DNA of 64,000 nucleotides from a virus (Duplodnaviria; Caudoviricetes), in the IMG/VR virus record IMGVR_UViG_3300025154_001556; one strand, written 5' to 3'. The notes below the pieces were generated by a model, which worked only from the letters and a program-made list of their open reading frames with translations, was not told the DNA's origin and made no database searches. Positions 4,167 through 61,236 of the stretch are shown here, piece after piece (positions within the stretch are counted from its first letter, which is position 1; each line of letters starts with the position of its first letter). Made by a program: the position numbers and the translations under genes.

Positions 4167-4175
4167 GTGAGCGCC

Positions 4176-22140: not shown

Positions 22141-25100
22141 TCACCTATCTAATACATGTCTTATTAATACCGCTAAATCAGTTAATGTGAAGGGTTTATT
22201 TAAATAACCTAAAGCCCCCATAGTTTTTGTTTCCCCAATAGGTCCTGCATCTGAGTAACCACTGGCAATTATTACCTTGGCTTTAGGATCATACTCCAAT
22301 AGTTTTTTCAAACAAGCTATACCACCCATACCAGGCATATTAAGATCCAATATAACTAAATCTATTTTAAAGGTTTTCTTATAGATATCCAGTGCTTCTT
22401 CACCGTTTTTAGCTAATATAACATTATAGCCTTGTGTTGTCAAGTAATTTTCAGTTAAATCAGTTAAAAACTCTTCATCATCTACCACAAGTATGGTTTC
22501 ATTGCCCTCAGTATAATCTGTTACTGTGATTACCGCTGTGGGCGGTTTGATAACAGCGGTTCTATCCGCCGGTAAATAAATACAAAAGGTAGTTCCTTGA
22601 TCAACTACGCTATCACACGTTATATAACCTGAATGGTTTTTTACAATACCATAAACCACATATAAACCTAAACCTGAACCACCTGTCGTTTGTTTTTTCG
22701 TAGTAAAAAAGGGATTAAAAATCTTGCTTATGTTTTCTTGTGGTATACCACACCCAGTATCACTAACCGTAAGTACTACATAGGTGCCTTCTTTAAATTC
22801 TGTATGCCCAGCACCTATATGCGTATTACATGTTATTATATTTAAATCACCACCATCTGGCATAGCATGTACAGCATTTATAGCAAGATTCATTATAACC
22901 TGCTCTATTTGTCCAACATCAGCCATAATAGGGTATAGGTCTTTTTCTAAGGAGTAGTCAATGTTTATCATCTTAGGTATAGTTCTTTTCATAAGCTCTA
23001 CCGTACTTTCTACTGATCTGTTTAAGCTAATTGGTTCTTTAAAACTTCTTTCCTTTTCAGAAAAGTATCTGAGCTGCCCTGTTAAGCGGGCTCCTTTATT
23101 AGCAGCCTCTACTATTGCTTGTATATACTCTTTTTTTGGTGTTTTCTCATTATTTATTTCCAGCATAATTAAATCAGAGTAGCCTAAAATAATTTGTAGT
23201 ATGTTATTAAAATCATGTGATAACCCACCAGATAAGGTGCCTATGGCCTCCATTTTTTGTGCTTCACGTAATTGTTTTTCTAATCGTAATGTTTTTATTA
23301 TATTACGTTTTCGTTGTATTATACGCCAAACATTATCGGCAAGGCTGAGCAAGTGGTCAACGTCTTTATTGTTGTAGTCACCATGATTTTTATTACCTAC
23401 ACCAAAAATAGCTACAATATTGTTACCATCAAATACGGGTACGTTCATATGATTAGTTATAGGCACATGCCCCTCTGGTAAACCACGTTTATTTATATAA
23501 TTAGGATAATCATTTATAAAAATGGCTTCTCTTGTTCTCAAACAATCTGCCCATACACCACACTTATCTAAGTTATAAGTAACATTTAATTTATCTGACC
23601 TAGAGCATTCACTCATAGCTTTGCCATTGTACGCTACTTGGGTTATTTTATCTTCATCACTATTAACCAGACTAACATAGCTTATAGAACTGTCACAAAG
23701 TTTTGAAATACTTTCGGCCACAAAAGCAAATATACTTGCCTCATCTCTTTCTTCCATCTGACTAAGTTCTAAAAGTATTTCTTTACGCTGGCTTAGTAAC
23801 TTGGTTTCTTCCTCCGCCTGTTTGCGCTCAGATATGTCTGTAATAACACAATGTGTTTGTTTAAAATTACCATTGTTATCATAACCAACCCTACCACTGA
23901 CACTAACCCAGACTGGAGTACCATCAGCTTTATTTAAAATATATTCTATACCAGAAAGATAACCAACTTTTTTTAATTTAGGTAGTTGCTCATTTATATA
24001 GGTATGATATCTTTTATCAACAAAATCTAATATATTACGTTTTTGTACTTCTTCTTTTTTATACCCTAATAATTCTAGCCAAGCATTATTAACATCAAGT
24101 AATTCACCGTGTATGCCTAAGGATTGATAGGCCAACGGTGCGTTCATAAACAAATCTTTATATTTTTTCTCATTTTCTATAAGGCGTATTGAGGCTTTTT
24201 GTAAGTCTTGTTGACGTAATTCATTTGATCGTAACGCAAGAAAAATACCAAACAAACCTATTATATACACTGCTGCATGGCAATATAAATCTACTATCAT
24301 TTTAGAATCTGCCAAGTCATGCATATGATCCATTGGAAGGCTTACACTTAGTGCGCCTACTAATTCCCCATCCTTAAATTGTTTGTGGCATACTTTACAG
24401 CCCTCCACTGCGTAAATAGTGTGTATATACCTAAAAGTGTTATCATCCACATAGTAGCTTTCTATTTTTTTACCTTCTTTTATAGACTCTAATAATTTGT
24501 TTTCCCAAAGTTCTGGCTGATCTTTTGTATTAAAACCCAGAATGCGGGCGGAGCTGGCTGCTTTGTGGGTATCTAATGTTACTCCAGCCTCATCAAAGTT
24601 TTTTAGCGTAGTATATGAGTACCTCATTACGACGCTGGGATTGAATAAAGGATTACTAGTACTACCATTAAGACACTCTTTCACATTTGCATGTGTTTCT
24701 TTTTTATGAGTTGTCATATTAGAGTTGGGTAGCCCCCCATAGTTAGTAATCCAGGATCTAAGCAATAAATCCTTTTCAAAAATGTTTTGTGCTTCAAGCA
24801 AAGCTGTGTGTTCTATAATATTATGTATTCTAGTGTGGTTATAACCTAAGGAGCTGGCTATAAGTGCGGTCCAAATAAAGAATACTATGGAATACGCGGT
24901 TGTATTAAGTTTACCACCAAATTTAGTTGTAAACAATAACAATATGGCTACTATTGCCACAAACAACACTAAGTAAGGTATTACTTCTTTTACACCGTAT
25001 TTAGGATATTTTTGTTGTATAGGTAGTTTTGAAAACCATTTATGCAATGCAACACTGTACGGTGATCCTTCATCTATTATCCAATCCTTCATATAATTGT

Positions 25101-25758
25101 CAATAGTGGATAGTATGTTTAAATGTTGATCTTTACGTGTAGCAAATAGTGCGGTGGAGGGAGAAAAAAATAAACCCGTTCTTTTTATATTATATGTTTT
25201 TAACGCGGCAGCATCATGGATATTGTTGGCCACAATAAATGTGGTCTCATTACTACTTATACTATTAAATAATTCAGCATAACTTTGGTAATATAACAAA
25301 GTAGGTTTAATACCAACACTATTGCAATAGTCGTAAAAAGAATTTGCAATTACTGTGTCTTTTATAACCCCTACACGCTTATTATTCAACTCCGTAAAAG
25401 TATTTATACTTGTGTTAGTGTGTGTATAAACAACACCCCAAAAAGTAAATAAAGGTATAGATGAGAAACTAAGAGTTTCTTCAAGAGAATCTGTTTTTGC
25501 AATAGCTGGTAATAGGTCTATTTTACCTGTTTTTAGTTCATCCAAGCACTCTGAAAAATTACAGCTTTTGTAAGTTATATTCCAACCCTCCATAGCTGCT
25601 ATATTATCCAAAACATCTACATACAGGCCTTGTGCTTTATCTTCGTCATAGTAAGTTATAGGTTTATTTTCAAACACACCTACTACTAAATCGTTAGCAG
25701 AAGTAGCTTGTGTTAATAAAACTAGTATGATGCTAAATAATACTGCTTTTAGGGTCAT
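22141..25758 (-). CDS. Hybrid sensor histidine kinase: periplasmic SBP, DUF3365-like heme domain, PAS, GAF, HisKA, HATPase, REC
   Basis: Signal peptide; SBP fold; CKVCH; PAS; GAF; GGLSHDFNNIL H-box; EQVIMNLAINAVHAM, DTGCGI, FNPFFTTK, GSGLGL; ILVVDDE..LVILDLNMPGMGG. Confidence 0.93.
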   Translation of the reverse strand: MTLKAVLFSIILVLLTQATSANDLVVGVFENKPITYYDEDKAQGLYVDVLDNIAAMEGWNITYKSCNFSECLDELKTGKIDLLPAIAKTDSLEETLSFSSIPLFTFWGVVYTHTNTSINTFTELNNKRVGVIKDTVIANSFYDYCNSVGIKPTLLYYQSYAELFNSISSNETTFIVANNIHDAAALKTYNIKRTGLFFSPSTALFATRKDQHLNILSTIDNYMKDWIIDEGSPYSVALHKWFSKLPIQQKYPKYGVKEVIPYLVLFVAIVAILLLFTTKFGGKLNTTAYSIVFFIWTALIASSLGYNHTRIHNIIEHTALLEAQNIFEKDLLLRSWITNYGGLPNSNMTTHKKETHANVKECLNGSTSNPLFNPSVVMRYSYTTLKNFDEAGVTLDTHKAASSARILGFNTKDQPELWENKLLESIKEGKKIESYYVDDNTFRYIHTIYAVEGCKVCHKQFKDGELVGALSVSLPMDHMHDLADSKMIVDLYCHAAVYIIGLFGIFLALRSNELRQQDLQKASIRLIENEKKYKDLFMNAPLAYQSLGIHGELLDVNNAWLELLGYKKEEVQKRNILDFVDKRYHTYINEQLPKLKKVGYLSGIEYILNKADGTPVWVSVSGRVGYDNNGNFKQTHCVITDISERKQAEEETKLLSQRKEILLELSQMEERDEASIFAFVAESISKLCDSSISYVSLVNSDEDKITQVAYNGKAMSECSRSDKLNVTYNLDKCGVWADCLRTREAIFINDYPNYINKRGLPEGHVPITNHMNVPVFDGNNIVAIFGVGNKNHGDYNNKDVDHLLSLADNVWRIIQRKRNIIKTLRLEKQLREAQKMEAIGTLSGGLSHDFNNILQIILGYSDLIMLEINNEKTPKKEYIQAIVEAANKGARLTGQLRYFSEKERSFKEPISLNRSVESTVELMKRTIPKMINIDYSLEKDLYPIMADVGQIEQVIMNLAINAVHAMPDGGDLNIITCNTHIGAGHTEFKEGTYVVLTVSDTGCGIPQENISKIFNPFFTTKKQTTGGSGLGLYVVYGIVKNHSGYITCDSVVDQGTTFCIYLPADRTAVIKPPTAVITVTDYTEGNETILVVDDEEFLTDLTENYLTTQGYNVILAKNGEEALDIYKKTFKIDLVILDLNMPGMGGIACLKKLLEYDPKAKVIIASGYSDAGPIGETKTMGALGYLNKPFTLTDLAVLIRHVLDR

Positions 25759-26887: not shown

Positions 26888-28462
26888 TTATAACCCCAAG
26901 TCATTGTATATATCATCTATATTATGAATTATTTTATAAGGTATATTTAGTTTATTATATGTATTTAGTATATTAGTATTTACATCACTTCTAAATTTAG
27001 GGTCCAAATCACGTACACCATCAGCTAACTGAAAGTTAAACATATCCATATTTGGTATATAAATAGTCTTATATAAATTTAGTATATGGTCCTTTATTAC
27101 ACCTTCATAGGCCGACATTGTAGAATTGCTGCCATGTATAGTAAGATCGTAACAATAAGCGTCCATTACAGACCTATCAGCAATAACAAAATCAACCTTA
27201 TCTTGTAATTCTAATTCCTCAGTTATTTGTTTACATGTTAACCATCTTGGAGTATGGGAACCTGCCCCCTTATTTATAATAAAGGGGCATTTCCGAGCTA
27301 ACTCATCAAGTACTATGGCATTTTTACCAGACAACTTCATTTTAGTACAAAGACTATACGCTATGGTGCTTTTTCCAGAGTTTTTTAATACTGTACCATC
27401 TGCATGGAGAAATAAATTATTACCGTCAAGAGTAAATCCATAATAAGTGCCAATACCAAGAGGGGTTACATTACGTATGCCCACTCTTGATGTTGTTCTT
27501 TGAGGATTTTTTACCTGTACCGCCTTTTTATGTGCAAGTTTACATGGTATTATATCTATACCTCTTGTTAAATTTACCCTATAATAATATCCCTCTTTAC
27601 CATTATTTGTGCAAACACATTTTACTTTTTTTATTGTTGTGTGTATACCGCAACTTCTAGAAATATAAAATAAATCATAGGCTAGTTGTTTAGACTTTAA
27701 TTTTACTTCATATCTACCTTTACTACGTTGATCTAAGTGTCCATCGGCATCCAGTATACCGGCTATAATGGATAAACGTTGTTCTATACTTGCATTAAAA
27801 TAATCTAAGGGTATATGTTTATTATTAATTAAATTATATTTCTGTAAATCAACTAAAAAACTATTCCCTTTACCTCTAACATTAGTTATTCCATAAGTAT
27901 ACTTAGTATTACCAACGTGTTTAAAAAACAAATTTCTGCTTTCAGCGAAACACTTAAATGTATTTAATATAATTTCATCTGTATTAGTTAATCTTGTTCC
28001 TGCTGAATGCCCATCACCAAGCCAAACACCCAGTATATATGGCGGTATTGCTAAGGTACTACTTACTGCTCTTTTAATAACAGCATTAAACTTACAAAGA
28101 ATTCTTTGTTTTTGTTTACCTAATTTTAAATAATTTTTTACTGTTATTATACGTATATCACCTAATTGTTGCTTTTTTAGTGATCTTTTTGTAGCCCCAC
28201 TTTTACGAGATTGTGAGTATTGTAATACTAACTCGTGACTTGCATTATAAATATGTTTTATTCCATCAATATATTCAAATTCATAAAGATCTTCCCTACC
28301 GTCTTTAAGTTCCAACACTCTTCTTGGGGTAGAGTCATCCCCCATTAAAACATCACCAACTACTATAAGTTCGACTGGTTTTATGGTACCATCATACATT
28401 CTAACTAAGGTGCCTTTACCAAAACAACCATGCGTGCCGCTAATAGCTATAATTTTCTTCAT
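26888..28462 (-). CDS. AAA_28/NadR-like P-loop kinase-ATPase (175 aa after splicing) containing an intein
   Basis: Spliced Walker A ISGTHG|SGKST; ELAR, DRS..D. Confidence 0.82.
   Translation of the reverse strand: MKKIIAISGTHGCFGKGTLVRMYDGTIKPVELIVVGDVLMGDDSTPRRVLELKDGREDLYEFEYIDGIKHIYNASHELVLQYSQSRKSGATKRSLKKQQLGDIRIITVKNYLKLGKQKQRILCKFNAVIKRAVSSTLAIPPYILGVWLGDGHSAGTRLTNTDEIILNTFKCFAESRNLFFKHVGNTKYTYGITNVRGKGNSFLVDLQKYNLINNKHIPLDYFNASIEQRLSIIAGILDADGHLDQRSKGRYEVKLKSKQLAYDLFYISRSCGIHTTIKKVKCVCTNNGKEGYYYRVNLTRGIDIIPCKLAHKKAVQVKNPQRTTSRVGIRNVTPLGIGTYYGFTLDGNNLFLHADGTVLKNSGKSTIAYSLCTKMKLSGKNAIVLDELARKCPFIINKGAGSHTPRWLTCKQITEELELQDKVDFVIADRSVMDAYCYDLTIHGSNSTMSAYEGVIKDHILNLYKTIYIPNMDMFNFQLADGVRDLDPKFRSDVNTNILNTYNKLNIPYKIIHNIDDIYNDLGL
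27380..28426 (-). mobile_element. Intein (349 aa) with LAGLIDADG endonuclease
   Basis: Starts CFGKGTLVRMYDG (VMA-like block A); AGILDADG; ends YGFTLDGNNLFLHADGTVLKN followed by Ser. Confidence 0.93.
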
Positions 28463-33034: not shown

Positions 33035-33063
33035 AGTATATAACATTAATCAGTTTTCGTCAA
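33035..33063 (-). promoter_or_regulatory. Sigma70-type promoter
   Basis: TTGACG-17 bp-TATACT on - strand. Confidence 0.65.
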
Positions 33064-33214
33064 CAACTTTTATAACTGACTTGCATTTTTTGTCGCACTT
33101 GCATTCTTTAATGTATGGTACTTTGCCAGCTTCTCCTACTGAGTTTTCAATACCACCGTATTCACCTGAGATATGACAAGCACATTCATCACTACATTTA
33201 CACTCATCTGACAT
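33050..33214 (-). CDS. Small Cys-rich protein (54 aa); true start 33214, not 33286
   Basis: GGAGG RBS before ATG 33214; the longer start overlaps the tRNA. Confidence 0.55.
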   Translation of the reverse strand: MSDECKCSDECACHISGEYGGIENSVGEAGKVPYIKECKCDKKCKSVIKVVDEN

Positions 33215-33235: not shown

Positions 33236-33306
33236 TGTCCCGTAGAGGAATTGAACCCCTTTAAGCGAGTTTAGAGTTCGCCGCAACGCCTGTCTGCCAA
33301 CGGGAC
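33236..33306 (-). tRNA. tRNA with CUA anticodon (amber suppressor type)
   Basis: GTCCCGT/ACGGGAC acceptor, A73; D arm with GG; GCGAA-CTCTAAA-CTCGC anticodon arm; AGGGG-TTCAATT-CCTCT T arm; CCA not encoded. Confidence 0.85.
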
Positions 33307-33307
33307 T

Positions 33308-33904
33308 TTATGCTGTAATATTTTTGATAGCACTATAATGGTTCCAGATTTCTAAATCAAGTTCGGCGACCGTTTTATTGTATTTATATGCTAGTTTAAC
33401 AAATTCTTGTTCTAATTGCAAGTATTTTCTTTTGGTAGGTGTTGCTTTTGGTGCATCAAACCCCATAAGGCGCATAAATTTAAGTATATGGGTATCTAAC
33501 CCAGCGCAGTTTGCGTTCTTTCTACTATGTATAATAAAACACCTGGCTGTTTTCATTCCTATGCCGTGTATTTTTTCTAAGTCTTCTACGGCGCACTTTT
33601 TTAAATCCAACCCACAACAAGCCAGAGCTATAAAAGTTTTGGCTTTATTGTTATAACAACCTATGCCACAAGATCGTAATAGGTTATCTATACCGTGGAG
33701 CGGGGTACCTACATTGTTAGCAGCATAAGTAAGTATAGCATTAAATGGGGTTTCATCATTATGTGTTATTTTATTGAGCAATGTTTCTAGGCAACGTGCT
33801 GCTGTCTTACCGTTCTTTCCAGCAGCACATACCCAGAATAGTAGGCTCTCTTGTAGTTGAGCCGTAGTTTGATTATAGTTTGTTATGTTGTTTGGATCAA
33901 TCAT
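33308..33904 (-). CDS. HhH-GPD DNA glycosylase-like protein (Ogg/Nth-like)
   Basis: LEKIHGIGMKTARCF, LDTHIL.FM, KY..LE..F, DL..W. Confidence 0.75.
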   Translation of the reverse strand: MIDPNNITNYNQTTAQLQESLLFWVCAAGKNGKTAARCLETLLNKITHNDETPFNAILTYAANNVGTPLHGIDNLLRSCGIGCYNNKAKTFIALACCGLDLKKCAVEDLEKIHGIGMKTARCFIIHSRKNANCAGLDTHILKFMRLMGFDAPKATPTKRKYLQLEQEFVKLAYKYNKTVAELDLEIWNHYSAIKNITA

Positions 33905-34191
33905 AATAGTTGTAACTTTTTAAAAACTTTATCTTCGGCTACTGCTGCTATGGCAGTTAATTCATAGTTCATATCAGGCTCCCTAAAACTCTTCCAGGCC
34001 ACGCCAATCAAATCTAACTTATCACCCCAGTATTTAAGTATATCTTCATTCTTGACTTGCAGATATATTAAAGTGCCGTTGGTCCAAGAGGTTTTATAAT
34101 TAAGTAAATATTCAGCTAAGGCGTGGCCTGCTTGTATGGCCTGTTGTATTTTAGTTAAATCTTTTCTAACAAGCACATACATCTTTTTCAT
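33901..34191 (-). CDS. Pth2-like peptidyl-tRNA hydrolase
   Basis: KMYVLVRKDL....AIQAGHA, L.V.NE..L, FREPD..ELTAIA. Confidence 0.75.
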   Translation of the reverse strand: MKKMYVLVRKDLTKIQQAIQAGHALAEYLLNYKTSWTNGTLIYLQVKNEDILKYWGDKLDLIGVAWKSFREPDMNYELTAIAAVAEDKVFKKLQLL

Positions 34192-34474
34192 ATTGCTTCA
34201 TCACCTCCTCCAATAAATTACTATACGGCGGATTGTAATTAGGTGATCCTGGTACCTCTATTTTTTCCATAGGAGTACCATGTAATAAGCAATATACAAT
34301 ATGTTTATATCTAAACTTTTCTTTAAGTTTGTTTAAATAGCACAGCTCTAATGTGTATTTATTATATATATTAGCACGTTGTGCTTCTTTGTAGCTTAAC
34401 CTGGTTGATCGTATTGAGCTTGCCAATTGTTTAAGTTCTGCTTTAAGTAGCGGCAGTTTTGTTTTCCGTGACAT
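34166..34474 (-). CDS. Hypothetical basic helical phage protein
   Basis: AAGGAG RBS; FRY.HI.YCLL.G...E.IE; overlaps the Pth2-like start. Confidence 0.7.
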   Translation of the reverse strand: MSRKTKLPLLKAELKQLASSIRSTRLSYKEAQRANIYNKYTLELCYLNKLKEKFRYKHIVYCLLHGTPMEKIEVPGSPNYNPPYSNLLEEVMKQYEKDVCAC

Positions 34475-34481
34475 AATTATT

Positions 34482-34577
34482 CTCCTTTAATTTGATTAAT
34501 AATAAATTAATTAGTTTAATATCAAATTAAAAGTCACGGTGGTGCTCTGGCCTACGTCCAAATCATAGTTGTCCTCC
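34482..34577 (-). promoter_or_regulatory. Leader mini-ORF MIWT-UAG-ARAPP-UGA plus a 13-bp stem covering the downstream SD
   Basis: GGAGG (34577-34573), 6 nt, ATG 34566; TAG 34554-34552; TGA 34536-34534; CTTTTAATTTGAT (34533-34521) pairs with ATCAAATTAAAGG (34496-34484), overlapping SD AAGGAG (34487-34482). Confidence 0.7.
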
Positions 34578-39595: not shown

Positions 39596-39681
39596 TGGAG
39601 CCTAGAGAGGGATTCGAACCCCCGATGTGTTTTACCACGACAGCTTACAAAACTGCTGCTATACCCCTTAGCGATCTAGGC
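39596..39681 (-). tRNA. tRNA-Thr(UGU) with an atypical long variable arm
   Basis: GCCTAGA/TCTAGGC, U73, encoded CCA; GCAGT-TTTGTAA-GCTGT; 16-nt variable region; GGGGG-TTCGAAT-CCCTC. Confidence 0.78.
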
Positions 39682-47202: not shown

Positions 47203-47454
47203 TTAAACACATTTCTTAGCGAGTACTAATTCCAACCCAGGGGTTTTAATGGACTGTTCTACCAAAGCCCGTGTCTCATTAAAAATCTCTAAACTGATTA
47301 TATCATTTATTTCCGCTTCAGTCAAGCCAATATCTGATTTTTCTTTCTTAATGCATCCCATTGTTTTACCTCTTCTGGTTATACACGCATGAATATTCTT
47401 CTTTGTGCTATCAGAAAATTTGCTTCTGTTTAATAATCTTAATGCTGCGGTATA
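47203..47454 (-). CDS. Exon 2 of intron-split phage gene (83 aa; spliced product 137 aa)
   Basis: YTAALRLLNRSK...ACITRRGKTMGC continues exon 1 in frame. Confidence 0.85.
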   Translation of the reverse strand, partial: YTAALRLLNRSKFSDSTKKNIHACITRRGKTMGCIKKEKSDIGLTEAEINDIISLEIFNETRALVEQSIKTPGLELVLAKKCV

Positions 47455-48515
47455 CAGACTGTTTACTCCCATTACTGGAAGGATCGGACTATACCACAAG
47501 TTTGAGTTTATCTAAAAAATATTCTTGACTTAGGTTCTCGTCATATCTAAACCTTATCATAGTTACTCCATTACTTGCACATAATTTGTTTTTTATAGTG
47601 TCAAGTGTCTGTCGGCGCTCAACATCTTTTTGAGTATCATAACCCAAACATGGGTAAAAATGCTGCTTTCCGTCATACTCTAATGCTATGGAGTGGTCGG
47701 GCAAAAAGATATCAAGAAATAGATTATGTCTGGTTTCTGGGTTTCTTAGCCAATCAAAAGTTTTTTCCAGTTCTATACTAATTCCTATATCTTTAAGCCA
47801 CAGTACCATATCTTTTATTTTGTATGAGCCCCTAACCCCGTACCGCAGGTAACATCTTTTTGAGCAGTAGTAATTAGGATCTCGTTTAGCTCTTGAAGGC
47901 CCCCTAGCAAAAATAATTCCACAACCTTTACAAGTAAACAGTGTCTTTTCTTTTAGCATACTTTTGTTGTGGCAGAGTTTAGAACAAAACTGCCCCCGCC
48001 CTTCACGTAATGCTGTACTTATAGAATCAAGTCTAAAGTCTTTACCACACTGAGCACAAGTATGTATAGGTATATTTACGTTATATTTATAATTACTTGT
48101 ACTAGAAATTTGGCGTCCTTGTAGTCTATGCCCGCATTCCGTGGAGCATGTTCGTATCTCTCTACGTTTTGGGGTAAATAAATTACTACAAATGGGGCAT
48201 ATAATTTCTTCTTTATTAAAAGACTTATGTTTTAAACCCTTCATAGTAATACTTCGCCATTGGGAGGCGCAGTTTTTACTACAAGTAGTTTGTTTACGTT
48301 TACTTATAAAGTAATTTTTACATATTGGACATTCTTTGTTCATACAATCCTCAAACTTCCCGGCGTATTATACACTCGTTGTGTATCTCGACTTTCGTCT
48401 CAGTCTCTGCGGGGTCAATTACGACTTCCCTCAGGATTGCCCTCAACTTAATTGGTAGGGGTTCCCTGATATGAGCCAGGTTTATTAACGTGCCCACCAT
48501 ACCTTAATAAGAAAA
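47455..48515 (-). mobile_element. Group I intron (1061 nt) encoding a homing endonuclease
   Basis: P1 GTGCCCAT/GTGGGCAC with U.G at the 5' splice site; P10 GGTAT/ATACC; CAGGGAA..CAATCCTGAG (P4/P5); CGCAGAGACTG and GGTATAGTCC (P7); P9 CTTCC/GGGAG; terminal G 47455. Confidence 0.9.
47489..48343 (-). CDS. Intron-encoded homing endonuclease: Zn-finger repeats plus Vsr/DUF559-like nuclease
   Basis: Repeated CxxC...CSxxC; LFLDIFLP...IALEYDGKQHF; stop overlaps the P7 3' strand. Confidence 0.82.
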   Translation of the reverse strand: MNKECPICKNYFISKRKQTTCSKNCASQWRSITMKGLKHKSFNKEEIICPICSNLFTPKRREIRTCSTECGHRLQGRQISSTSNYKYNVNIPIHTCAQCGKDFRLDSISTALREGRGQFCSKLCHNKSMLKEKTLFTCKGCGIIFARGPSRAKRDPNYYCSKRCYLRYGVRGSYKIKDMVLWLKDIGISIELEKTFDWLRNPETRHNLFLDIFLPDHSIALEYDGKQHFYPCLGYDTQKDVERRQTLDTIKNKLCASNGVTMIRFRYDENLSQEYFLDKLKLVV

Positions 48516-48677
48516 ATGGGCACAATCATTAACTGGAAAACTTTTTCCAGGACCGCAAAAGGTTGATTTCTTTAACTTTTTTCTTTCCTTGGTAGTTAAT
48601 TTAGCGGCGTCTTCTTTACCAAGGGCAGTCCGTGCTCTTTTTAATAGTTGATCTAATGCATCTAAAAATTCACTCAT
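48516..48677 (-). CDS. Exon 1 of intron-split phage gene (54 aa)
   Basis: AGGAG RBS; MSEFLDAL...LTTKERKKLKKSTFCGPGKSFPVNDCAH, ending at the P1-defined splice site. Confidence 0.85.
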
Positions 48678-56272: not shown

Positions 56273-56893
56273 TTAGGCATATTCTTTGACCCCTTTAAAA
56301 GATTTTCTATGGTACTCACAGGGTCCGTAGGTGATTATAGCCTCTCTATGATCTTTTGTCAAGTACCCTTTGTTCTTTCTCCACTTATACAAAGGGAAAT
56401 TTTTATCATACTCATACATGAGATGATCTCTTACTACTTTAGCCACAATACTTGCCGCGGCTATGGATAGTACCTTAGAGTCTCCTTTAATAATTGGGCA
56501 CTGTGTAGCTGCTATACTTTTAAGCTTTATAGGACCGTCTATAAAAATATAATCGTAAGGGATATCTAAATCATATAACGCCACTTTCATTGCTAATTTG
56601 GTGGCTTCCAGTATATTAACGTCATCTATTATTTTTTGATCTATAACACCTACACCTATATCGCAAGTAGTGCTTAATTCCCTGGCTAACTCTACTCGCT
56701 TAGCCTCCGTTAGTTGTTTAGAGTCGGTGACTCTACCAATGAACTGGGCCATAGTATTAGGAGGTATATAAACAGCAGCAGCCACTACTGGTCCGGCGCC
56801 ACAGCCTCTCCCAACCTCGTCTATACCAACAGGGTGGGTGAAGCTGAGACTTAACGCCTCAGCTTCGTAAGTGTAATCAGGAAATGACTTCAT
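56273..56893 (-). CDS. rnhB: Ribonuclease HII
   Basis: GIDEVGRG..AGPVVAAAV, DSKQL, IDG, IIKGD....SIAAASIVAKV.RD, NKGY, HRKSF. Confidence 0.95.
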   Translation of the reverse strand: MKSFPDYTYEAEALSLSFTHPVGIDEVGRGCGAGPVVAAAVYIPPNTMAQFIGRVTDSKQLTEAKRVELARELSTTCDIGVGVIDQKIIDDVNILEATKLAMKVALYDLDIPYDYIFIDGPIKLKSIAATQCPIIKGDSKVLSIAAASIVAKVVRDHLMYEYDKNFPLYKWRKNKGYLTKDHREAIITYGPCEYHRKSFKGVKEYA

Positions 56894-57254
56894 CTGGGTC
56901 CACCGCAGTAGATCTAATATTAGCCAGACAGTCGGGTGCCACAATAGGCTCTTCTACAAGGTAGGTGTTTTTAGTAGTTTCGCCCACAGCAGAAGAAGCC
57001 ACTTGTTGTTCATGTAGTTTGGTCAATGCCTTCAATCTTTTTCTGCGGATGGCACCATCTATTACCCAAATAGGTGCATAGGTACTAACAGGTCTTGGCT
57101 TAATAACCACCTTAGTTATATCTAACTGGTAATGTAAACAAAATCGGTGTTTATTACTTTTAACTTTATCTTTTTTAATTAGACATCTTGTGCCAGCCTC
57201 ATTAAGATTTTTACAAGTATTACATTTAATTTTTTTAGTATTACTTTTTTGCAT
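56877..57254 (-). CDS. Hypothetical Cys-containing protein
   Basis: C..C..L....C...K...C..Y. Confidence 0.55.
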   Translation of the reverse strand: MQKSNTKKIKCNTCKNLNEAGTRCLIKKDKVKSNKHRFCLHYQLDITKVVIKPRPVSTYAPIWVIDGAIRRKRLKALTKLHEQQVASSAVGETTKNTYLVEEPIVAPDCLANIRSTAVDPDEVIS

Positions 57255-57264
57255 TTAAATCTCC

Positions 57265-57417
57265 TTATAAACCTAATTCATCGTCTTCGTCGTCGTCGTC
57301 TTCTTCTTTAAGTTTTAAATAGGCACTTAATTCATCAATGTCATTAAAAAACTTATCTGTGTCCATATCTATATCTACTAGTCCTTCAATAAACTCATCC
57401 ACATCGTCGTCTGCCAT
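57265..57417 (-). CDS. Very acidic 50-aa protein (missed by ORF track)
   Basis: GGAGGA RBS; MADDDVDEFIEGLVDIDMDTDKFFNDIDELSAYLKLKEEDDDDEDDELGL. Confidence 0.65.
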   Translation of the reverse strand: MADDDVDEFIEGLVDIDMDTDKFFNDIDELSAYLKLKEEDDDDEDDELGL

Positions 57418-57441
57418 ATTTTCCTCCTTATTGTGCTATAA

Positions 57442-58029
57442 CTAAGCTGCTATTTCTTTATCTATGTATTTAAATATATCTTGTAATTTACTTATTCTTA
57501 TAACTTTACTATTAATATACCATTTATTATATGGCCTGTCAATTAAAAAATTTACTGCTTTGGTGTGCTCTAACATGGATTCTATATTTACTGCATGGTC
57601 ATCTATATAAACGTTCAAACCTAACTGTCTACCCAAAAGTCCTTTATTACTACCATGCCCTAGGGCGTGTAATGAAGTATAAGGTATAGCATGAGTATCA
57701 AACCATTTTTGCGTAGCAAGTAGGGCAGCCTCAGGACGTGCTGTTATGAAATGCACATCATGTCCAAACGCAAATAATTTTTTTATCGTTTCCGATACCC
57801 CATAGTAGGGTGGTGCATTATATAAATAAGCGGTATCATTAACCCAAGCTATAATATCTTCTGCTATACTTTTATTTGTTTCATCACACTCTGTATAGTT
57901 ATTTGAAAAAAAATTATACTCCGCAAAAGTAGAAATTGTGTTTTTAACTCCCCACTTTAAATGTATGGAATCCAGTATTGATGATAATAAATCACACACA
58001 ACTTCATCAACGTCTATGCCAATGTTCAT
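57442..58029 (-). CDS. HAD 5'-nucleotidase (NT5C-like)
   Basis: IGIDVDEVV, HFITAR, K, YIDDH. Confidence 0.85.
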   Translation of the reverse strand: MNIGIDVDEVVCDLLSSILDSIHLKWGVKNTISTFAEYNFFSNNYTECDETNKSIAEDIIAWVNDTAYLYNAPPYYGVSETIKKLFAFGHDVHFITARPEAALLATQKWFDTHAIPYTSLHALGHGSNKGLLGRQLGLNVYIDDHAVNIESMLEHTKAVNFLIDRPYNKWYINSKVIRISKLQDIFKYIDKEIAA

Positions 58030-58403
58030 ATTATGGTTTCCTTAGTAAAGTCATTAAAATGAATAGTATCTTCTTTACCTAAATAACTGCCTTTTTGTAT
58101 TTTTATAATTTCCAATGGTATTTTACCAGGATTTTCTAAGCTATGCCATTCTGTCATAGGTATATAAATACTTTGATTTTCAAAAAGTAACGTATTATTA
58201 TCACCACAAGTTACTGAGGCGGTGCCGCTAAGTACAACCCAATACTCTAAGCTATGGTAATGCATTTGTAAGGGTAGTTTTTTACCTACATCTATGGAAA
58301 GCAGCTCAACTTTAAAAGTATTCTGTTCTTTTAATAGAGTGGAAGTACCCCAGAATTGTTTTAGGCTGTCAGCACAATCTATGTTATTAATGGCCATACT
58401 CAT
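58026..58403 (-). CDS. Stand-alone cupin resembling the mannose-6-phosphate isomerase (type II) C-terminal domain
   Basis: LQMHYH..E.WVV..GTA.VT...ENQS.YIP...H.LENPGKIPLE.I..Q.GSYLG. Confidence 0.85.
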   Translation of the reverse strand: MSMAINNIDCADSLKQFWGTSTLLKEQNTFKVELLSIDVGKKLPLQMHYHSLEYWVVLSGTASVTCGDNNTLLFENQSIYIPMTEWHSLENPGKIPLEIIKIQKGSYLGKEDTIHFNDFTKETII

Positions 58404-58612
58404 TTTGTATACTTCAAATAAAAGTTCATTGCTTCTATGGCTATTACCAATTCGTATTCCGTTAAAGATAAAGTACCTGGGTTATTCACGTCACTTATAG
58501 AAGCAAGGGATAACTTCATTTTATTTCCTATTAAACTAGCAGTGCTTAAACGTTTTACATGAAACTCTTCGCAGTATTGTTTATAGCCCTCGACCGTTGT
58601 TGTATCTACCAT
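58400..58612 (-). CDS. Hypothetical protein
   Basis: ORF track. Confidence 0.5.
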   Translation of the reverse strand: MVDTTTVEGYKQYCEEFHVKRLSTASLIGNKMKLSLASISDVNNPGTLSLTEYELVIAIEAMNFYLKYTK

Positions 58613-58670
58613 ACTTATATTCCTTAGTAAATGTTAGTTAAACAGTATTAAACAGGGTATTATGCTTTAT

Positions 58671-58699
58671 ATAATATCACATAATACCCTGCTTGTCAA
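58671..58699 (-). promoter_or_regulatory. Sigma70-type promoter overlapping a 12-bp inverted repeat after nrdJ
   Basis: TTGACA-17 bp-TATTAT; cagggtattatg...cataataccctg. Confidence 0.65.
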
Positions 58700-58719
58700 C
58701 AATTAATTATATTGTATAA

Positions 58720-61236
58720 TTAGTCACAACGAGAATAGGCGCAATTAGTACATTTAATACAACTTTCTGATCTAATTAAAGCTACTTCTCCGCATTCTGG
58801 ACATACATTAGAACTCTTTTCATATTTATATTGTTTTATATATGAACCCAGTACTCTTGCCACTACTGCGCTAAAATCAGTTATTTCGCCATTGGCTTTA
58901 CGTAACTGTTGTTGAATAAATTCTAACGGGGTACCGTGTCTTAATGCCAAACTAAGAAGACGTGTCAAAGCTCTTTGATTCGACGTCATTAAAACATGAG
59001 CTAAGTCTTTATACTCCACTTCTGCTTGCCTAATAGTTATTTCTAAGGAGTACTTACCACCCCCCTTCTTAACTATTTTACCAGCTTTACATGTTTTAGG
59101 TACATATAGCCCTTCTTCTACCTCGCCGGCAAAAATTTCATAAGGGTCACCATCCATGAGACCTATAATAACAAGCCATGGAATACCTTTAACAGAACAG
59201 TGATGTATACTGCATTCCAAAGAGTCTGGCCTTTTGGGGGCACAAACAGGCATTATACGAGTGGGCCTGTTTTCTGGGGAGCACAGTGATTGAGTTGGCT
59301 TACTATCAAATTTATTCTTATTTGTTATTGGATCTTCAAAAAGAAGAATACCTTCCCTTGAACCATCAACATAAACAGAAACAGCCCTAACTCCGTTATC
59401 ATAAGCAGACATATAAATGTTTTCTACATCTGCCACAGTAGCAGAACTTGGTAAATTATATGTACAACTAATAGAAGCGTCAAGCCACTTATACACCGCG
59501 GACATAAGTTTTATTTTACGTTGTGGATCTATCTCATGTGCTGGTTTAAAGAAGCCCTCTGGCACGTATTTTTTAATTATATCTATAATTGCCAACCCGT
59601 ATTTGCCATCTTCATCCAATGTGGCGCCGCCAAAAGAAACAAACCTTTCGTAATCATTAGATTCTGGGTCCATTTTGGACATGACGTACTCTCTCAATCT
59701 ATCTGGCATCATAAAGTAGTGTGTATAATTTCCTTTATCAATAGCCCTGGTACGTCGCCAATAATACAATCCCATTACAGGTTCAATACCAGAAGATATA
59801 CAAGGTGATGGAAATGTGCTGGAAAGTGAACCAGCGGGGGCTATACTCATATGAGCCATATTGCGCATATGTCTTACCTTAGTGGCGTCCCCATCAAAAA
59901 ACTCATTAACCATATTATTAAAATACGTTGTATTCATATAAAGATTTTTATCCTCAATGAGCCTAAACGCAGCAGCATCTCCTTTCTCTTCACCTAATTC
60001 CATAGAAGCTTTAAAAACTTGGTGCGCGTAACACTTCATAAACTTTTCTACTGCTACTATTGCCTCTTCTGAGTCGTACGCTAAATTTTGTTTTAATAGC
60101 CAGCCATGTAAATTTGTTATACCCATACCAATTTCACGTAGTTGCTCTACAATCCAGCGTTGTTGTGGTACTGGACTTAAATTATTACATAGCTCATAGT
60201 CAATAACATTATCTGCCATACGTACCATTAAAGGCACTATTACTTCCAATTCTTTTGTATAACCCTCTTCGATGATGGAAAAATTCTCCATGTTACAAGA
60301 AGAAAGGTTACAAACAGAATAAGGGGCCATAAATTTTTCCGAACATGCGTTCGAAGAATGAGGTAAAAATCTTTCATCTCCTATGTGATCATAAATGGCT
60401 TTATACATAATACTATTTTGTAAAAGATTTCTATACTGTATACCAGGTTCGGCTGTTTTCCAAGCGCGTGTTGCTATGTCACTAAATAATTTTTTAGCAT
60501 TGACTGTTTTAGTTACTACTTCACCGGTACCTTTTACTTCAAAACGTAATTCCCATTCTTTATCTGCTTTAACAGCAGCCATGAAATCATTAGTAATCTG
60601 TACAGATATATTAGCATTATTTATTTTTTTAAGATCATCTTTACAAGAAATAAATTCTTCGATGTCTGGATGGCTAACAATTAGTGACTCCAAAAGAGCT
60701 GGTTTACGTCCCTGTTGTCCCACATAATCACCGACCCTGTTTATTTTATCCATCCACGATACCACGCCAGTTGATTCACAGGCAGCATTATTAAGTTTGC
60801 TACCACGAGGTCGTAGGTTAGAAAAGTCGATGCCTATACCTTGTCTGTAAGCGGCACATTTCATAACATCATATTCGCATTGAGCTATTGATTCTAGGGT
60901 ATCTTCATACAAAGGAATTGTAGTACAATTACACATTGAACTCTTTCTATTAGAACCAATGCTAGACATAACACTACCACCAGGACGAAACCACCCTTCC
61001 CACATCAAGGAGAACCAAACATCTTTATAATAGGAGGCTTTAACTAAATTCTTTTCCATATTTGCCAAACTATTAGCAATACGAAAAAAAACCTCAGCGG
61101 GCGTTTCTTTTGTGCCATCCTCTTTATACATTGCATACTTAGCATTAAAAATGTCAACAGAATAAGAGTTATTGGCAAAGTATTCTTCAACAGAAATATT
61201 TTTTACTTCATCGAATTGCACAGTTGGTTTGTACAT
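58720..61236 (-). CDS. nrdJ: Class II (B12-dependent) ribonucleotide reductase with C-terminal Zn ribbon
   Basis: FRPGG, SMCNC, SNACSE, CNL, IGMG...L, SIAP.GS, SIS.T.N, Y.DGSR, CPECG...C..C. Confidence 0.92.
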   Translation of the reverse strand: MYKPTVQFDEVKNISVEEYFANNSYSVDIFNAKYAMYKEDGTKETPAEVFFRIANSLANMEKNLVKASYYKDVWFSLMWEGWFRPGGSVMSSIGSNRKSSMCNCTTIPLYEDTLESIAQCEYDVMKCAAYRQGIGIDFSNLRPRGSKLNNAACESTGVVSWMDKINRVGDYVGQQGRKPALLESLIVSHPDIEEFISCKDDLKKINNANISVQITNDFMAAVKADKEWELRFEVKGTGEVVTKTVNAKKLFSDIATRAWKTAEPGIQYRNLLQNSIMYKAIYDHIGDERFLPHSSNACSEKFMAPYSVCNLSSCNMENFSIIEEGYTKELEVIVPLMVRMADNVIDYELCNNLSPVPQQRWIVEQLREIGMGITNLHGWLLKQNLAYDSEEAIVAVEKFMKCYAHQVFKASMELGEEKGDAAAFRLIEDKNLYMNTTYFNNMVNEFFDGDATKVRHMRNMAHMSIAPAGSLSSTFPSPCISSGIEPVMGLYYWRRTRAIDKGNYTHYFMMPDRLREYVMSKMDPESNDYERFVSFGGATLDEDGKYGLAIIDIIKKYVPEGFFKPAHEIDPQRKIKLMSAVYKWLDASISCTYNLPSSATVADVENIYMSAYDNGVRAVSVYVDGSREGILLFEDPITNKNKFDSKPTQSLCSPENRPTRIMPVCAPKRPDSLECSIHHCSVKGIPWLVIIGLMDGDPYEIFAGEVEEGLYVPKTCKAGKIVKKGGGKYSLEITIRQAEVEYKDLAHVLMTSNQRALTRLLSLALRHGTPLEFIQQQLRKANGEITDFSAVVARVLGSYIKQYKYEKSSNVCPECGEVALIRSESCIKCTNCAYSRCD

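What the first reader, a model, noticed from the sequence alone, without database searches (positions are those of the whole stretch)
33236..33306. Amber suppressor-type tRNA (CUA) in a genome that still uses TAG as a stop
Seen: a full cloverleaf with loop CTCTAAA, an A31:C39 mismatch, G1-C72/U2-A71, A73 and a 4-nt variable loop, starting 2 nt after the stop of the HhH glycosylase gene. Intact conserved genes (pncB, nadD, UDG, polA) end in TAG and have no internal TAG, so the genome is not recoded. The acceptor and T arms resemble tRNA-Glu (GUCCC..., AGGGG). The loop equals that of tRNA-Pyl, but the body has canonical GG and TTC. Inference: it may be a regulated suppressor acting on host genes, on phage TAG junctions or on the leader above. 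The amino acid it carries is unknown.
Basis: partly seen in the sequence, partly recalled or inferred. Interest (0 to 1): 0.75.

Follow-up and report, generated by a model that had tools for sequence, protein, structure and literature searches.

The report
Phage amber tRNA unlocks neighbouring operon
A giant groundwater phage that otherwise uses the normal genetic code carries a genuine UAG-reading tRNA whose only conserved target is a UAG-interrupted leader in front of the neighbouring peptidyl-tRNA-hydrolase operon; the same link recurs in many uncultured and four cultured giant phages, which may explain why such phages keep 'orphan' suppressor tRNAs.

Summary
A 71-nt cloverleaf tRNA with anticodon CUA lies on the minus strand at 33236-33306. 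It is identical in three independent assemblies.

The genome is not recoded. I read about 135 kb of this roughly 237-kb phage and two complete related genomes, and found TAG used only as a stop, with one exception. That exception is a 10-codon leader 1.2 kb upstream on the same strand: M-I-W-T-UAG-A-R-A-P-P-UGA, followed by a hairpin that covers the next ribosome-binding site.

The leader, an unknown helical protein ('gene X'), a Pth2-like peptidyl-tRNA hydrolase and tRNA(CUA) form a conserved module:
- 25 of 30 gene-X loci carry a tRNA(CUA), against 1 of 64 relatives without gene X.
- All 32 internal stops in 24 leaders are TAG.
- The closest relative lost the leader and both genes, and keeps only a wrecked tRNA.

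In the cultured phages XacN1, RAS14, BF and ME3 the Pth2-like gene itself starts ATG-x-TAG, and each encodes a tRNA(CUA).

Best reading (0.6): a working amber suppressor that licenses translation of this operon. The amino acid is unknown; the acceptor half resembles tRNA-Glu. Nothing is shown experimentally.

Earlier notes of this scan already described the leader on this same DNA.

The parts
33236..33306 (-). tRNA(CUA), 71 nt, no encoded CCA: amber-suppressor-type elongator tRNA
   Evidence: ARAGORN; Rfam RF00005 42.8 bits; cloverleaf read from the sequence; identical in 3 assemblies; 28 related tRNA(CUA) keep the fold with compensatory changes
34534..34566 (-). Leader ORF ATG ATT TGG ACG TAG GCC AGA GCA CCA CCG TGA (M I W T UAG A R A P P stop). 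The in-frame TAG is at 34552-34554; its Shine-Dalgarno GGAGG is at 34573-34577
   Evidence: Sequence. It is the only SD-preceded ATG..TAG..PP-stop mini-ORF in the window. Equivalent leaders with TAG occur in 24 distinct related loci
34484..34533 (-). Hairpin with a 13-bp stem. The 5' arm starts on the base after the leader's TGA. The 3' arm covers AAGG of the gene X Shine-Dalgarno AAGGAG (34482-34487)
   Evidence: RNA fold. The 13-bp stem appears in both the MFE and the centroid structure. The z-score of the whole 115 nt is only -1.2
34166..34474 (-). Gene X: a 102-aa helical-hairpin protein of unknown function, the first gene behind the leader
   Evidence: No Pfam or PHROG hit. AlphaFold2 pLDDT 86, two long helices; no PDB fold match. 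The family has 1,620 clusters at E<=1e-3. Three natural fusions to the Pth2-like domain exist
33901..34191 (-). Pth2-like (peptidyl-tRNA hydrolase 2 family) gene, 96 aa, overlapping the end of gene X
   Evidence: Pfam PTH2 E 0.005; phrog_3668 'hydrolase' E 4e-14. The family profile A5 hits solved Pth2 structures 2zv3, 24bt, 1rzw and 1rlk, with E from 4.5e-5 to 1.2e-3. It follows gene X in 26 of about 30 loci
33308..33904 (-). HhH (Ogg-like) DNA glycosylase gene lying between the Pth2-like gene and the tRNA. It is an optional passenger of the module
   Evidence: Pfam Ogg-HhH E 1.4e-9. It is present next to the module in only 12 of about 33 loci
33050..33214 (-). Cys-rich 54-aa ORF just downstream of the tRNA (neighbour, not part of the module)
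   Evidence: It has its own GGAGG and ATG. It is conserved in G001, which lacks the module, and is not found in the other module loci

Best explanation
The gene encodes a working amber (UAG) suppressor tRNA. It is matured and charged by host enzymes, possibly helped by the phage's own CCA-adding enzyme, since the gene encodes no CCA.

It is the trans-acting part of a self-contained phage module, all on one strand: leader, gene X, Pth2-like hydrolase, (glycosylase), tRNA(CUA).

Proposed mechanism:
- Without charged tRNA(CUA), ribosomes on the 10-codon leader terminate at codon 5 (UAG). The 13-bp hairpin that starts right after the leader stays closed over the gene X ribosome-binding site.
- When tRNA(CUA) outcompetes RF1, the ribosome runs five codons further to Arg-Ala-Pro-Pro-UGA and stalls there.
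- The stalled ribosome's footprint opens the hairpin. Gene X and the overlapping Pth2-like gene are then translated.

The tRNA thus acts as a licence (an AND-gate, delay or leak filter) for an operon whose products act on peptidyl- or blocked aminoacyl-tRNA. The rest of the genome keeps TAG as an ordinary stop; any readthrough there adds only short tails.

Which residue is inserted probably does not matter. The related tRNAs differ in acceptor stems and discriminators. In this phage the acceptor half looks tRNA-Glu-like.

Shown: the tRNA fold, the conserved CUA anticodon, the conserved in-frame TAG, the co-occurrence and co-loss, and the absence of recoding.

Inferred: expression, charging, readthrough, stalling, hairpin opening, and what the module is for.
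For: 1. Real tRNA.

2. Selection on the fold and the anticodon. In 28 tRNA(CUA) from related modules, 96.6% of cells are paired. 19 of 21 pairs show changes on both sides. The covariation score is 0.868, against 0.208 in shuffles and 0.08-0.16 for slid partners. The anticodon is invariant and the loop is nearly always YUCUAAA, with A36-A37-A38. The 17-nt anticodon stem-loop of the window tRNA, including A31.C39, recurs exactly in three otherwise different tRNA(CUA): L068, L087 and L097.

3. A conserved client. 24 distinct leaders contain 32 internal in-frame stops, and all are TAG. Each is followed by xPP, mostly directly before a stop. Each of the window, G004 and G006 has exactly one such SD-preceded leader, always in front of gene X. 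G001 has none.

4. Linkage. 21 of 23 IMG/VR loci found through gene X carry a tRNA(CUA) within 5 kb, nearly always on the same strand and mostly 250-900 nt downstream. Overall the count is 25 of 30 gene-X loci against 1 of 64 glycosylase relatives without gene X (Fisher p 8e-17).

5. Co-loss. G001 is colinear with the window at 70-99% protein identity. It lacks the leader, gene X and the Pth2-like gene, and keeps only a 59-nt remnant with the same acceptor halves and no cloverleaf.

6. No recoding.
- No internal TAG against G001 orthologues in the window.
- None in 61.9 kb beyond the window, which includes tail genes (22,100 aligned residues).
- A 7,682-residue tape-measure product is called under the standard code.
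- The complete module-bearing genomes G004 and G006 gain no more from reading TAG as sense than from reading TGA as sense.
- TAG makes up 16-20% of stops whether or not the module is present.

7. G006 keeps only three tRNAs, and one of them is CUA.

8. Cultured phages. In XacN1, RAS14, BF and ME3 the Pth2-like ORF begins ATG-x(1-2)-TAG in frame, and all four encode tRNA(CUA). Aeromonas phage PX29 has a plain-ATG Pth2-like gene and no tRNA(CUA).

9. The hairpin geometry fits a stall-opened Shine-Dalgarno.

10. Natural gene X-Pth2 fusions exist.

11. An engineered circuit of the same logic works in E. coli (Ho et al. 2020, PMC7969014).
Against: - There are no data on expression, aminoacylation or readthrough.
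- The window tRNA scores lower (42.8 bits) than its relatives (52-69 bits) and has an A31.C39 mismatch.
- With 16-20% of the phage's own genes ending in TAG, a strong suppressor would extend many proteins. Activity must therefore be weak, timed, or tolerated.
- Keeping a tRNA for one operon seems costly, which favours a wider role (rival 1).
- Linkage is not perfect. Two of 23 gene-X loci show no tRNA(CUA) within 5 kb. L059, L087 and L097 have a tRNA(CUA) without gene X in the stretch fetched. In XacN1 and RAS14 the tRNA lies far from the Pth2-like gene.
- XacN1 and ME3 have possible alternative starts just after the TAG.
- The fold z-score of the whole leader region is modest (-1.2).
- The sigma-70 promoter scan is not above chance, so co-transcription is unproven.
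- The function of gene X is unknown.
Confidence: 0.6

Rival explanations
1. General suppressor with a coupled clean-up operon. On this reading the tRNA's main job is genome-wide or host-wide UAG readthrough: host takeover, C-terminally extended isoforms, or buffering of amber mutations in a large AT-rich genome. The TAG-gated gene X/Pth2 operon is only a feed-forward helper, made in proportion to suppressor activity to recycle the peptidyl-tRNA or stalled-ribosome by-products.
For: The sign of the gate fits: more suppression gives more Pth2-like enzyme. tmRNA genes lie within a few kb of the module in L077, L101, L103, L107 and L112. A whole tRNA for one operon looks costly. TAG stops are common in this phage, so readthrough products must arise if the tRNA is active.
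Against: No conserved coding extension follows TAG stops, and in-frame downstream ORFs are not enriched after TAG. TAG stops are neither depleted nor enriched relative to the module-less relative G001 (11 against 9 of 66 orthologues). When the operon was lost in G001, the tRNA decayed too, which would not be expected if the tRNA had an independent general benefit.
Confidence: 0.25
2. Code-change intermediate. The phage is on the way to, or back from, TAG-to-sense recoding of late genes, as in crAss-like and Lak phages, and the tRNA serves in-frame TAGs in genes I did not read.
For: Suppressor tRNAs are strongly linked to TAG recoding in gut phages, and a suppressor was seen in a standard-code relative of recoded phages (Borges et al. 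preprint). About 100 kb of this genome was not read here.
Against: No in-frame TAG occurs in about 135 kb of this phage, including tail genes, nor in the complete genomes G004 and G006. TAG is not depleted as a stop in the window family (16-20%). The module is conserved across very divergent phages, so it is a stable state rather than a transition.
Confidence: 0.05
3. Counter-defence or decoy tRNA. The tRNA exists to resist or soak up a host tRNA-targeting nuclease or toxin, and the CUA anticodon is a by-product of escaping recognition.
For: The phage carries a tRNA-repair kit just upstream of the window: a CCA-adding enzyme, an RNA ligase and a Ro/TROVE protein. The Pth2-like enzyme could also detoxify blocked aminoacyl-tRNA (inference from general knowledge).
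Against: It does not explain the invariant CUA anticodon across 30 different tRNA bodies. It also does not explain the strictly TAG-specific interruption of the adjacent leaders.
Confidence: 0.05
4. Dead or accidental gene: a decaying tRNA (for example a mutated tRNA-Glu), or a tRNA-Pyl, with no role in this phage.
For: It has the second-lowest Rfam score of the seven tRNAs in the window and a 31.39 mismatch. The orthologous site in G001 is a wreck. ARAGORN labels it 'Pyl'.
Against: The cloverleaf is intact and the sequence is identical across assemblies. The same 31.39 non-pair occurs in 8 of 28 related tRNA(CUA) and in XacN1's, so it is a family trait. Covariation is strong. The Pyl-specific architecture is absent.
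Confidence: 0.04

Closest known systems
The two tRNA(CUA) genes of Xanthomonas jumbo phage XacN1 (Yoshikawa et al. 2018, PMC5852040)
   Same: Amber-suppressor-type tRNAs in a cultured jumbo phage that uses the standard code. The anticodon loop is CUCUAAA with a 31.39 non-pair. The phage also has a Pth2-like gene.
   Different: The authors read through the 18 terminal TAG stops and found no target. XacN1 has no gene X and no arrest leader. Instead its Pth2-like ORF364 appears to start ATG AAG TAG, seven codons upstream of the annotated start, and is fused to another N-terminal domain. The tRNAs lie in the terminal repeats, far from that gene.
Suppressor tRNAs of TAG-recoded gut phages (crAss-like, Lak; code 15; Borges et al. 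2021 preprint 10.1101/2021.08.26.457843; Peters et al. 2022, PMC9523058)
   Same: A phage-encoded tRNA(CUA) in a host with the standard code. The proposed use of UAG decoding to time gene expression is also shared.
   Different: Those phages have many in-frame TAGs in structural and lysis genes and few TAG stops. Here there is a single TAG-interrupted leader per genome, and TAG remains 16-20% of stops.
RAPP/RGPP-type ribosome arrest leaders (ApdA, ApdP; SecM-type monitoring substrates). Named from my own knowledge and from the earlier scan notes; I did not read those papers here
   Same: A short upstream ORF ends in R-A-P-P next to a hairpin that hides the next gene's Shine-Dalgarno.
   Different: The stall site lies behind an in-frame UAG, so it can be reached only if UAG is decoded. 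The input is therefore a tRNA rather than secretion or a small molecule. Many relatives have K/V/H-P-P-stop instead of RAPP.
Synthetic 'leak dampener' feed-forward loop with an amber suppressor tRNA (Ho et al. 2020, NAR, PMC7969014)
   Same: The same logic: the target gene carries TAG and is expressed only when a co-regulated suppressor tRNA is present.
   Different: That circuit is engineered, with the TAG inside the target ORF. The natural module mostly puts the TAG in an arrest leader. The cultured-phage variants put it at codons 3-4 of the gene.
E. coli tRNA-Glu (gltT)
   Same: The acceptor stem is identical in 6 of 7 pairs (G1-C72, U2-A71). Both have a 4-nt variable loop, a T stem AGGGG/CCYCT, and U35 and A37.
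   Different: The D arm differs (C11-G24, and G13.U22 instead of U13.G22). Positions 34 and 36 differ. The discriminator is A rather than G. Charging by GluRS is untested.

Membership tests
Canonical elongator tRNA (Rfam RF00005) | Covariance-model score above the curated threshold over the full model | tested here: met
   42.8 bits against 29, model positions 1-71; ARAGORN also calls it
Canonical elongator tRNA (Rfam RF00005) | Cloverleaf with 7/4/5/5-bp stems, U8, GG in the D loop, a TTC-type T loop and U33 | tested here: met
   Read from the sequence. The one non-pair is A31.C39
Canonical elongator tRNA (Rfam RF00005) | Stems maintained by compensatory changes among relatives | tested here: met
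   28 related tRNA(CUA): 96.6% paired, 19 of 21 pairs with double changes, covariation 0.868 against 0.208 shuffled
Amber suppressor tRNA | Anticodon CUA in a normal 7-nt loop with U33 and a purine at position 37 | tested here: met
   Loop CUCUAAA. The same loop occurs in nearly all 30 related tRNAs
Amber suppressor tRNA | In-frame UAG codons that need decoding in the same genome | tested here: met
   One site: the leader TAG at 34552-34554, conserved as TAG in 24 related leaders. No others were found
Amber suppressor tRNA | Aminoacylation and UAG readthrough in vivo | not testable with these tools
   No RNA run holds the stretch. Reporter and charging assays are needed
tRNA-Pyl | 6-bp anticodon stem, 3-nt variable loop, short D loop without GG, non-canonical T loop | tested here: not met
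   It has a 5-bp stem, a 4-nt variable loop, a 7-nt D loop with GG and a TTCAATT T loop. Only the anticodon loop matches. The Pyl features themselves are quoted from my own knowledge
tRNA-Pyl | pylS / pylBCD genes in the genome | not tested
   None appear among the Pfam-scanned neighbours, but there was no dedicated search
Bacterial tRNA-Glu | G1-C72, U2-A71 and a 4-nt variable loop (no position 47) | tested here: met
   Alignment with E. coli gltT
Bacterial tRNA-Glu | Augmented D helix (U11-A24, U13.G22..A46) and anticodon U34 U35 C36 | tested here: not met
   It has C11-G24, G13.U22 (reversed), A46 present, and C34 U35 A36. The identity rules are quoted from my own knowledge of the E. coli system
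TAG-recoded (code 15-like) phage | Many in-frame TAG codons in late or structural genes, with TAG rare as a stop | tested here: not met
   About 100 kb of this genome was not read
Arrest-peptide-controlled operon (RAPP type) | An upstream ORF ending in R-A-P-P beside a structure that sequesters the downstream Shine-Dalgarno | tested here: met
   Sequence and a 13-bp stem covering AAGG of AAGGAG
Arrest-peptide-controlled operon (RAPP type) | Ribosome stalling on the motif | not testable with these tools
   Needs toeprinting or ribosome profiling
Pth2 (peptidyl-tRNA hydrolase 2), for the gated gene | Profile-level similarity to solved Pth2 proteins | tested here: met
   Profile A5 against the PDB: 2zv3 at E 4.5e-5, 24bt at 5.5e-5, 1rzw at 7.6e-4. 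Hydrolase activity is untested

The most novel reading that the evidence does not exclude
Giant phages of many lineages that use the standard code keep a private codon-tRNA pair (UAG plus their own tRNA-CUA) as a dedicated genetic lock on a Pth2-like hydrolase. The lock works either through a UAG-interrupted arrest leader (with gene X) or through a UAG at codons 3-4 of the gene itself. This would be a natural orthogonal 'amber switch'. It would also explain the orphan suppressor tRNAs of cultured jumbo phages such as XacN1, RAS14, Serratia BF and Acinetobacter ME3.
Probability: 0.55. Interest if true: 0.85.

Novelty: new variant of a known kind. Interest (0 to 1): 0.8.

Why it matters
Suppressor tRNAs in phages have so far been read as tools or precursors of whole-genome stop-codon recoding. 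In standard-code jumbo phages they have been unexplained: the XacN1 paper states that no target could be found.

Here there is a concrete, conserved target. It points to a regulatory use of a stop codon, in which a phage-owned tRNA acts as the input of a translational switch controlling an enzyme of tRNA or ribosome recycling.

The gene X family alone has more than 1,600 sequence clusters, so the module is common in nature.

Four cultured phages carry the simpler form of the link, so the idea can be tested directly. It also flags genes that annotation pipelines miss or truncate. The BF Pth2-like gene is unannotated, and those of XacN1, RAS14 and ME3 are probably annotated from the wrong start.

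Tried and rejected
- Megablast of 6 kb around the tRNA against named phages found no match. polA by tblastn gave 35% identity or less.
- The exact tRNA with a free anticodon was absent from IMG/VR. A looser acceptor pattern found only G001.
- The window's gene X as a single query found nothing in IMG/VR or in named phages. Only the alignment reached relatives.
- Gene X has no PDB sequence hit, no Foldseek hit at E<=0.001 and no PHROG.
- Guessing the isotype by global alignment to 103 other phage tRNAs was uninformative.
- The sigma-70 promoter scan was not above shuffles (16 found against 18.5 expected). No minus-strand terminator lies between the leader and the tRNA. Co-transcription is therefore neither shown nor excluded.
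- Sequencing runs: no RNA holder is listed. Laying four runs gave only contigs. A wastewater contig of a close relative covers 33245-33461 with no change in the tRNA part, which says nothing about expression.
- Agrobacterium phage Atu_ph07 has a UGA suppressor, but it has no match to this Pth2-like profile. The parallel 'TGA-gated Pth2' idea could not be tested.
- A search for other genes with an early in-frame TAG found only the Pth2-like gene in BF. RAS14 gave three further unverified candidates.
- The Pyl reading was rejected on architecture.
- I did not use complex prediction. The host, and hence RF1 and the aaRS partners, are unknown.

Full report
**The object.** ARAGORN finds seven tRNA genes in the window, all on the minus strand. 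One, at 33236-33306, has anticodon CTA. Rfam's tRNA model scores it 42.8 bits (threshold 29) over the full model. Read from the sequence, it is a regular cloverleaf:
- acceptor GTCCCGT/ACGGGAC
- D stem GCAG/TTGC with GG in the loop
- anticodon stem GCGAA/CTCGC with one A31.C39 non-pair
- anticodon loop CTCTAAA
- 4-nt variable loop
- T arm AGGGG-TTCAATT-CCTCT
- discriminator A, with no encoded CCA

It starts two bases after the last base of the glycosylase stop codon. The tRNA and the surrounding 1.56 kb are letter-identical in three independent assemblies, and 18 groundwater or soil runs hold the DNA.

**What the DNA is.** The window is part of a large uncultured phage. It carries polA, ribonucleotide reductase, Rad52, a ClpB-like ATPase, a methylase, inteins, homing endonucleases and seven tRNAs. 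It has no close named relative. The same phage occurs in about 100 sample blocks, on contigs up to 156 kb. The nearest IMG/VR relative, here called G001 (234 kb, estimated 89% complete), is colinear with the window at 70-99% protein identity.

**Is the genome recoded? No.**
- Standard-code ORFs of at least 100 aa cover 88% of the window. Reading TAG as sense gains no more than reading TGA as sense.
- By my crude ORF calls, TAG ends 17 of 85-91 genes.
- Aligning every G001 ORF to the window shows no internal stop in a real gene. The few stops lie upstream of true starts or in antisense frames.
- I walked 61.9 kb beyond the window's end, through replication genes, a sugar-modification island, five giant tail-fibre-like genes and the end of the tape-measure gene. 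Coverage there is 96%, TAG-sense gains 0.4%, and 22,100 aligned residues contain no internal stop.
- The tape-measure product is called as 7,682 residues under the standard code.
- The 9 kb before the window is also ordinary.
- Two complete related genomes that carry the module, G004 (175 kb) and G006 (186 kb, with terminal repeats), are standard-coded in every 10-kb block.
- TAG is 16-20% of stops in the window, G004 and G006, and 16% in G001, which lacks the tRNA.
- Among 66 orthologue pairs, the window has 11 TAG stops and G001 has 9.
- In-frame downstream ORFs are not more frequent after TAG than after TAA or TGA.

**The turn: relatives.** The glycosylase next to the tRNA brought in 70 related loci. 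Few had tRNAs, yet four of the eleven tRNAs found in the metagenome set were CUA, all with good scores of 52-69 bits. I checked it myself.

On the minus strand, a good Shine-Dalgarno is followed by ATG ATT TGG ACG TAG GCC AGA GCA CCA CCG TGA. Directly after the TGA begins a 13-bp stem whose 3' arm covers AAGG of the AAGGAG in front of the next gene.

That next gene, gene X (102 aa), has no Pfam, PHROG or PDB relative. It folds confidently as a helical hairpin. It overlaps a 96-aa gene whose family profile matches solved Pth2 peptidyl-tRNA hydrolases. The glycosylase and then the tRNA follow.

**Conservation of the module.**
- An alignment of seven gene X homologues found 23 IMG/VR loci. Twenty-one carry a tRNA(CUA) within 5 kb, nearly always on the same strand and a few hundred bases downstream.
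- The Pth2-like gene follows gene X in 26 of about 30 loci. The glycosylase is present in only 12.
- Counting all loci, 25 of 30 with gene X have a tRNA(CUA), against 1 of 64 glycosylase relatives without gene X (p 8e-17).
- In front of gene X there is nearly always a mini-ORF of the form M-x(1-8)-TAG-x(2-12)-PP, mostly ending in a stop. There are 24 distinct leaders with 32 internal stops, and every one is TAG.
- The window, G004 and G006 each contain exactly one such leader. G001 contains none.
- G001 also lacks gene X and the Pth2-like gene. At the tRNA site it has a 59-nt remnant with both acceptor halves but no cloverleaf. Leader, genes and tRNA were therefore lost together.
- The gene X family has 1,620 clusters at E<=1e-3. 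Three of the top 150 are fused to the Pth2-like domain.

**The tRNAs as a family.**
- The 28 distinct tRNA(CUA) keep the cloverleaf in 96.6% of cells, with changes on both sides at 19 of 21 pairs. This is far above the shuffled and slid controls.
- The anticodon is invariant, and the loop is almost always YUCUAAA. From general knowledge, the A36-A37-A38 run is the context of the i6A37 modification that helps UAG and UNN decoding. This was not tested here.
- Acceptor stems, variable loops and discriminators differ widely (8 A, 13 U, 8 G, 1 C). No single amino-acid identity is conserved. That fits a role in which getting past the UAG matters more than what is inserted.
- The window tRNA shares its exact 17-nt anticodon arm with three otherwise different tRNA(CUA).
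- A 31.39 non-pair recurs in 8 of 28.
- Against the real E. coli gltT gene, the window tRNA has the same acceptor stem in 6 of 7 pairs, the same 4-nt variable loop and a similar T stem, but a different D arm. Glu, Gln and Lys are the likeliest residues. From general knowledge, these three synthetases read U35. None was tested.

**Cultured phages.** The Pth2-like protein has homologues in cultured jumbo phages. None of the three I searched (XacN1, RAS14, BF) has gene X.
- In XacN1 and RAS14 the ORF is preceded in frame by SD-ATG AAG TAG. In Serratia phage BF it is ATG ACG CAC TAG, and in Acinetobacter phage ME3 it is ATG ACT TAG.
- In RAS14 and BF no canonical start lies between the TAG and the conserved N-terminus. 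The BF gene is not annotated at all.
- All four phages encode tRNA(CUA). In ME3 it lies 450 bases upstream, and in BF 3.2 kb downstream.
- Aeromonas phage PX29 has a plain-ATG Pth2-like gene, and none of its 23 tRNAs is CUA.
- The XacN1 authors looked only beyond terminal TAG stops and reported no target.

**Mechanism and its limits.** The evidence supports a module in which the tRNA(CUA) is the trans-acting input and the UAG-interrupted leader, or UAG-interrupted gene start, is the cis-acting lock on gene X and the Pth2-like enzyme. The stall-and-open model follows from the geometry and from what is known of RAPP and Pro-Pro-stop stalling. It is an inference.

Why a hydrolase of peptidyl-tRNA should be tied to amber suppression is open. 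It could clean up after readthrough (rival 1). Alternatively, it could be a dangerous enzyme that needs a tight, delayed, phage-specific lock. An engineered circuit with exactly this logic removes leaky expression in E. coli.

I found no paper describing the link. Two earlier reports of this scan described the leader on this same DNA. My additions are:
- the analysis of the tRNA family
- the co-loss in G001
- the genome-wide exclusion of recoding
- the gene X-Pth2 fusions
- the cultured-phage variant of the lock

Noticed in passing
window 47203-48677: A small gene that is intact in G001 is split in the window by about 1.06 kb holding a 284-aa ORF (47489-48343), probably an intron with a homing endonuclease. 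Contigs from several assemblies end at about 47.4 or 48.5 kb, as expected if this insert is polymorphic. An earlier scan note calls it a group I intron.
   Followed up: partly
window 26888-28462: This 524-aa gene carries Hom_end_hint and LAGLIDADG hits. It is 99% identical between the window and G001, while its neighbours are 75-87% identical. That suggests a recent transfer of a homing element.
   Followed up: no
window 61942-63858 versus G001 56529-59735: G001's polA is 1,068 aa and the window's is 638 aa. About 380 extra residues sit in the middle of the G001 gene, which looks intein-like.
   Followed up: no
window 39596-39681: This tRNA-Thr(UGU) is 86 nt long, with an extra arm of about 12 nt in the variable region. 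That is unusual for a Thr tRNA. It is conserved in G001.
   Followed up: no
L099 1-5400 (9.3 to 4 kb before the window start): This stretch holds RuvB, a sigma-70-like factor, a CCA-adding enzyme with an HD domain and a TROVE/Ro60-like protein. An RNA ligase lies at window 4167-4811. Together they form a tRNA/RNA repair kit, and could supply the CCA that the tRNA(CUA) gene lacks.
   Followed up: no
L077 1770-2152; L101 2487-2862; L103 2831-3157; L107 3132-3463; L112 7316-7666: Phage-encoded tmRNA genes lie within about 3 kb of the gene X/Pth2/tRNA(CUA) module in five relatives.
   Followed up: no
L142 2449-3300 (XacN1 ORF364); L143 2449-3300 (RAS14): In these phages the Pth2-like domain is the C-terminal third of a protein of about 280 aa. 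Its N-terminal part carries HD-like motifs (H..HDIGKP, HDM.FH), so it may be a phosphohydrolase. This is read from the sequence only.
   Followed up: no
RAS14 record OP752703.1, complement 302428-302502: ARAGORN calls a second stop-reading tRNA with anticodon TTA (ochre type), 4 kb from the tRNA(CUA).
   Followed up: no
L144 about 2974-3312 (Serratia phage BF, NC_041917.1 about 286083-286421): The Pth2-like gene is not annotated in the RefSeq record, nor in the related Erwinia and Yersinia phage records. The likely reason is that the only start lies before an in-frame TAG.
   Followed up: partly
window 22141-25758: This 1,205-aa phage gene has periplasmic-binding, PAS, GAF, histidine-kinase ATPase and receiver domains, making it a hybrid sensor kinase.
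   Followed up: no
walked region, window +1 to +61.9 kb: TAG is much rarer as a stop there than in the window: 2 of 52 ORFs of at least 100 aa on the coding strand, against 17 of 85.
   Followed up: no
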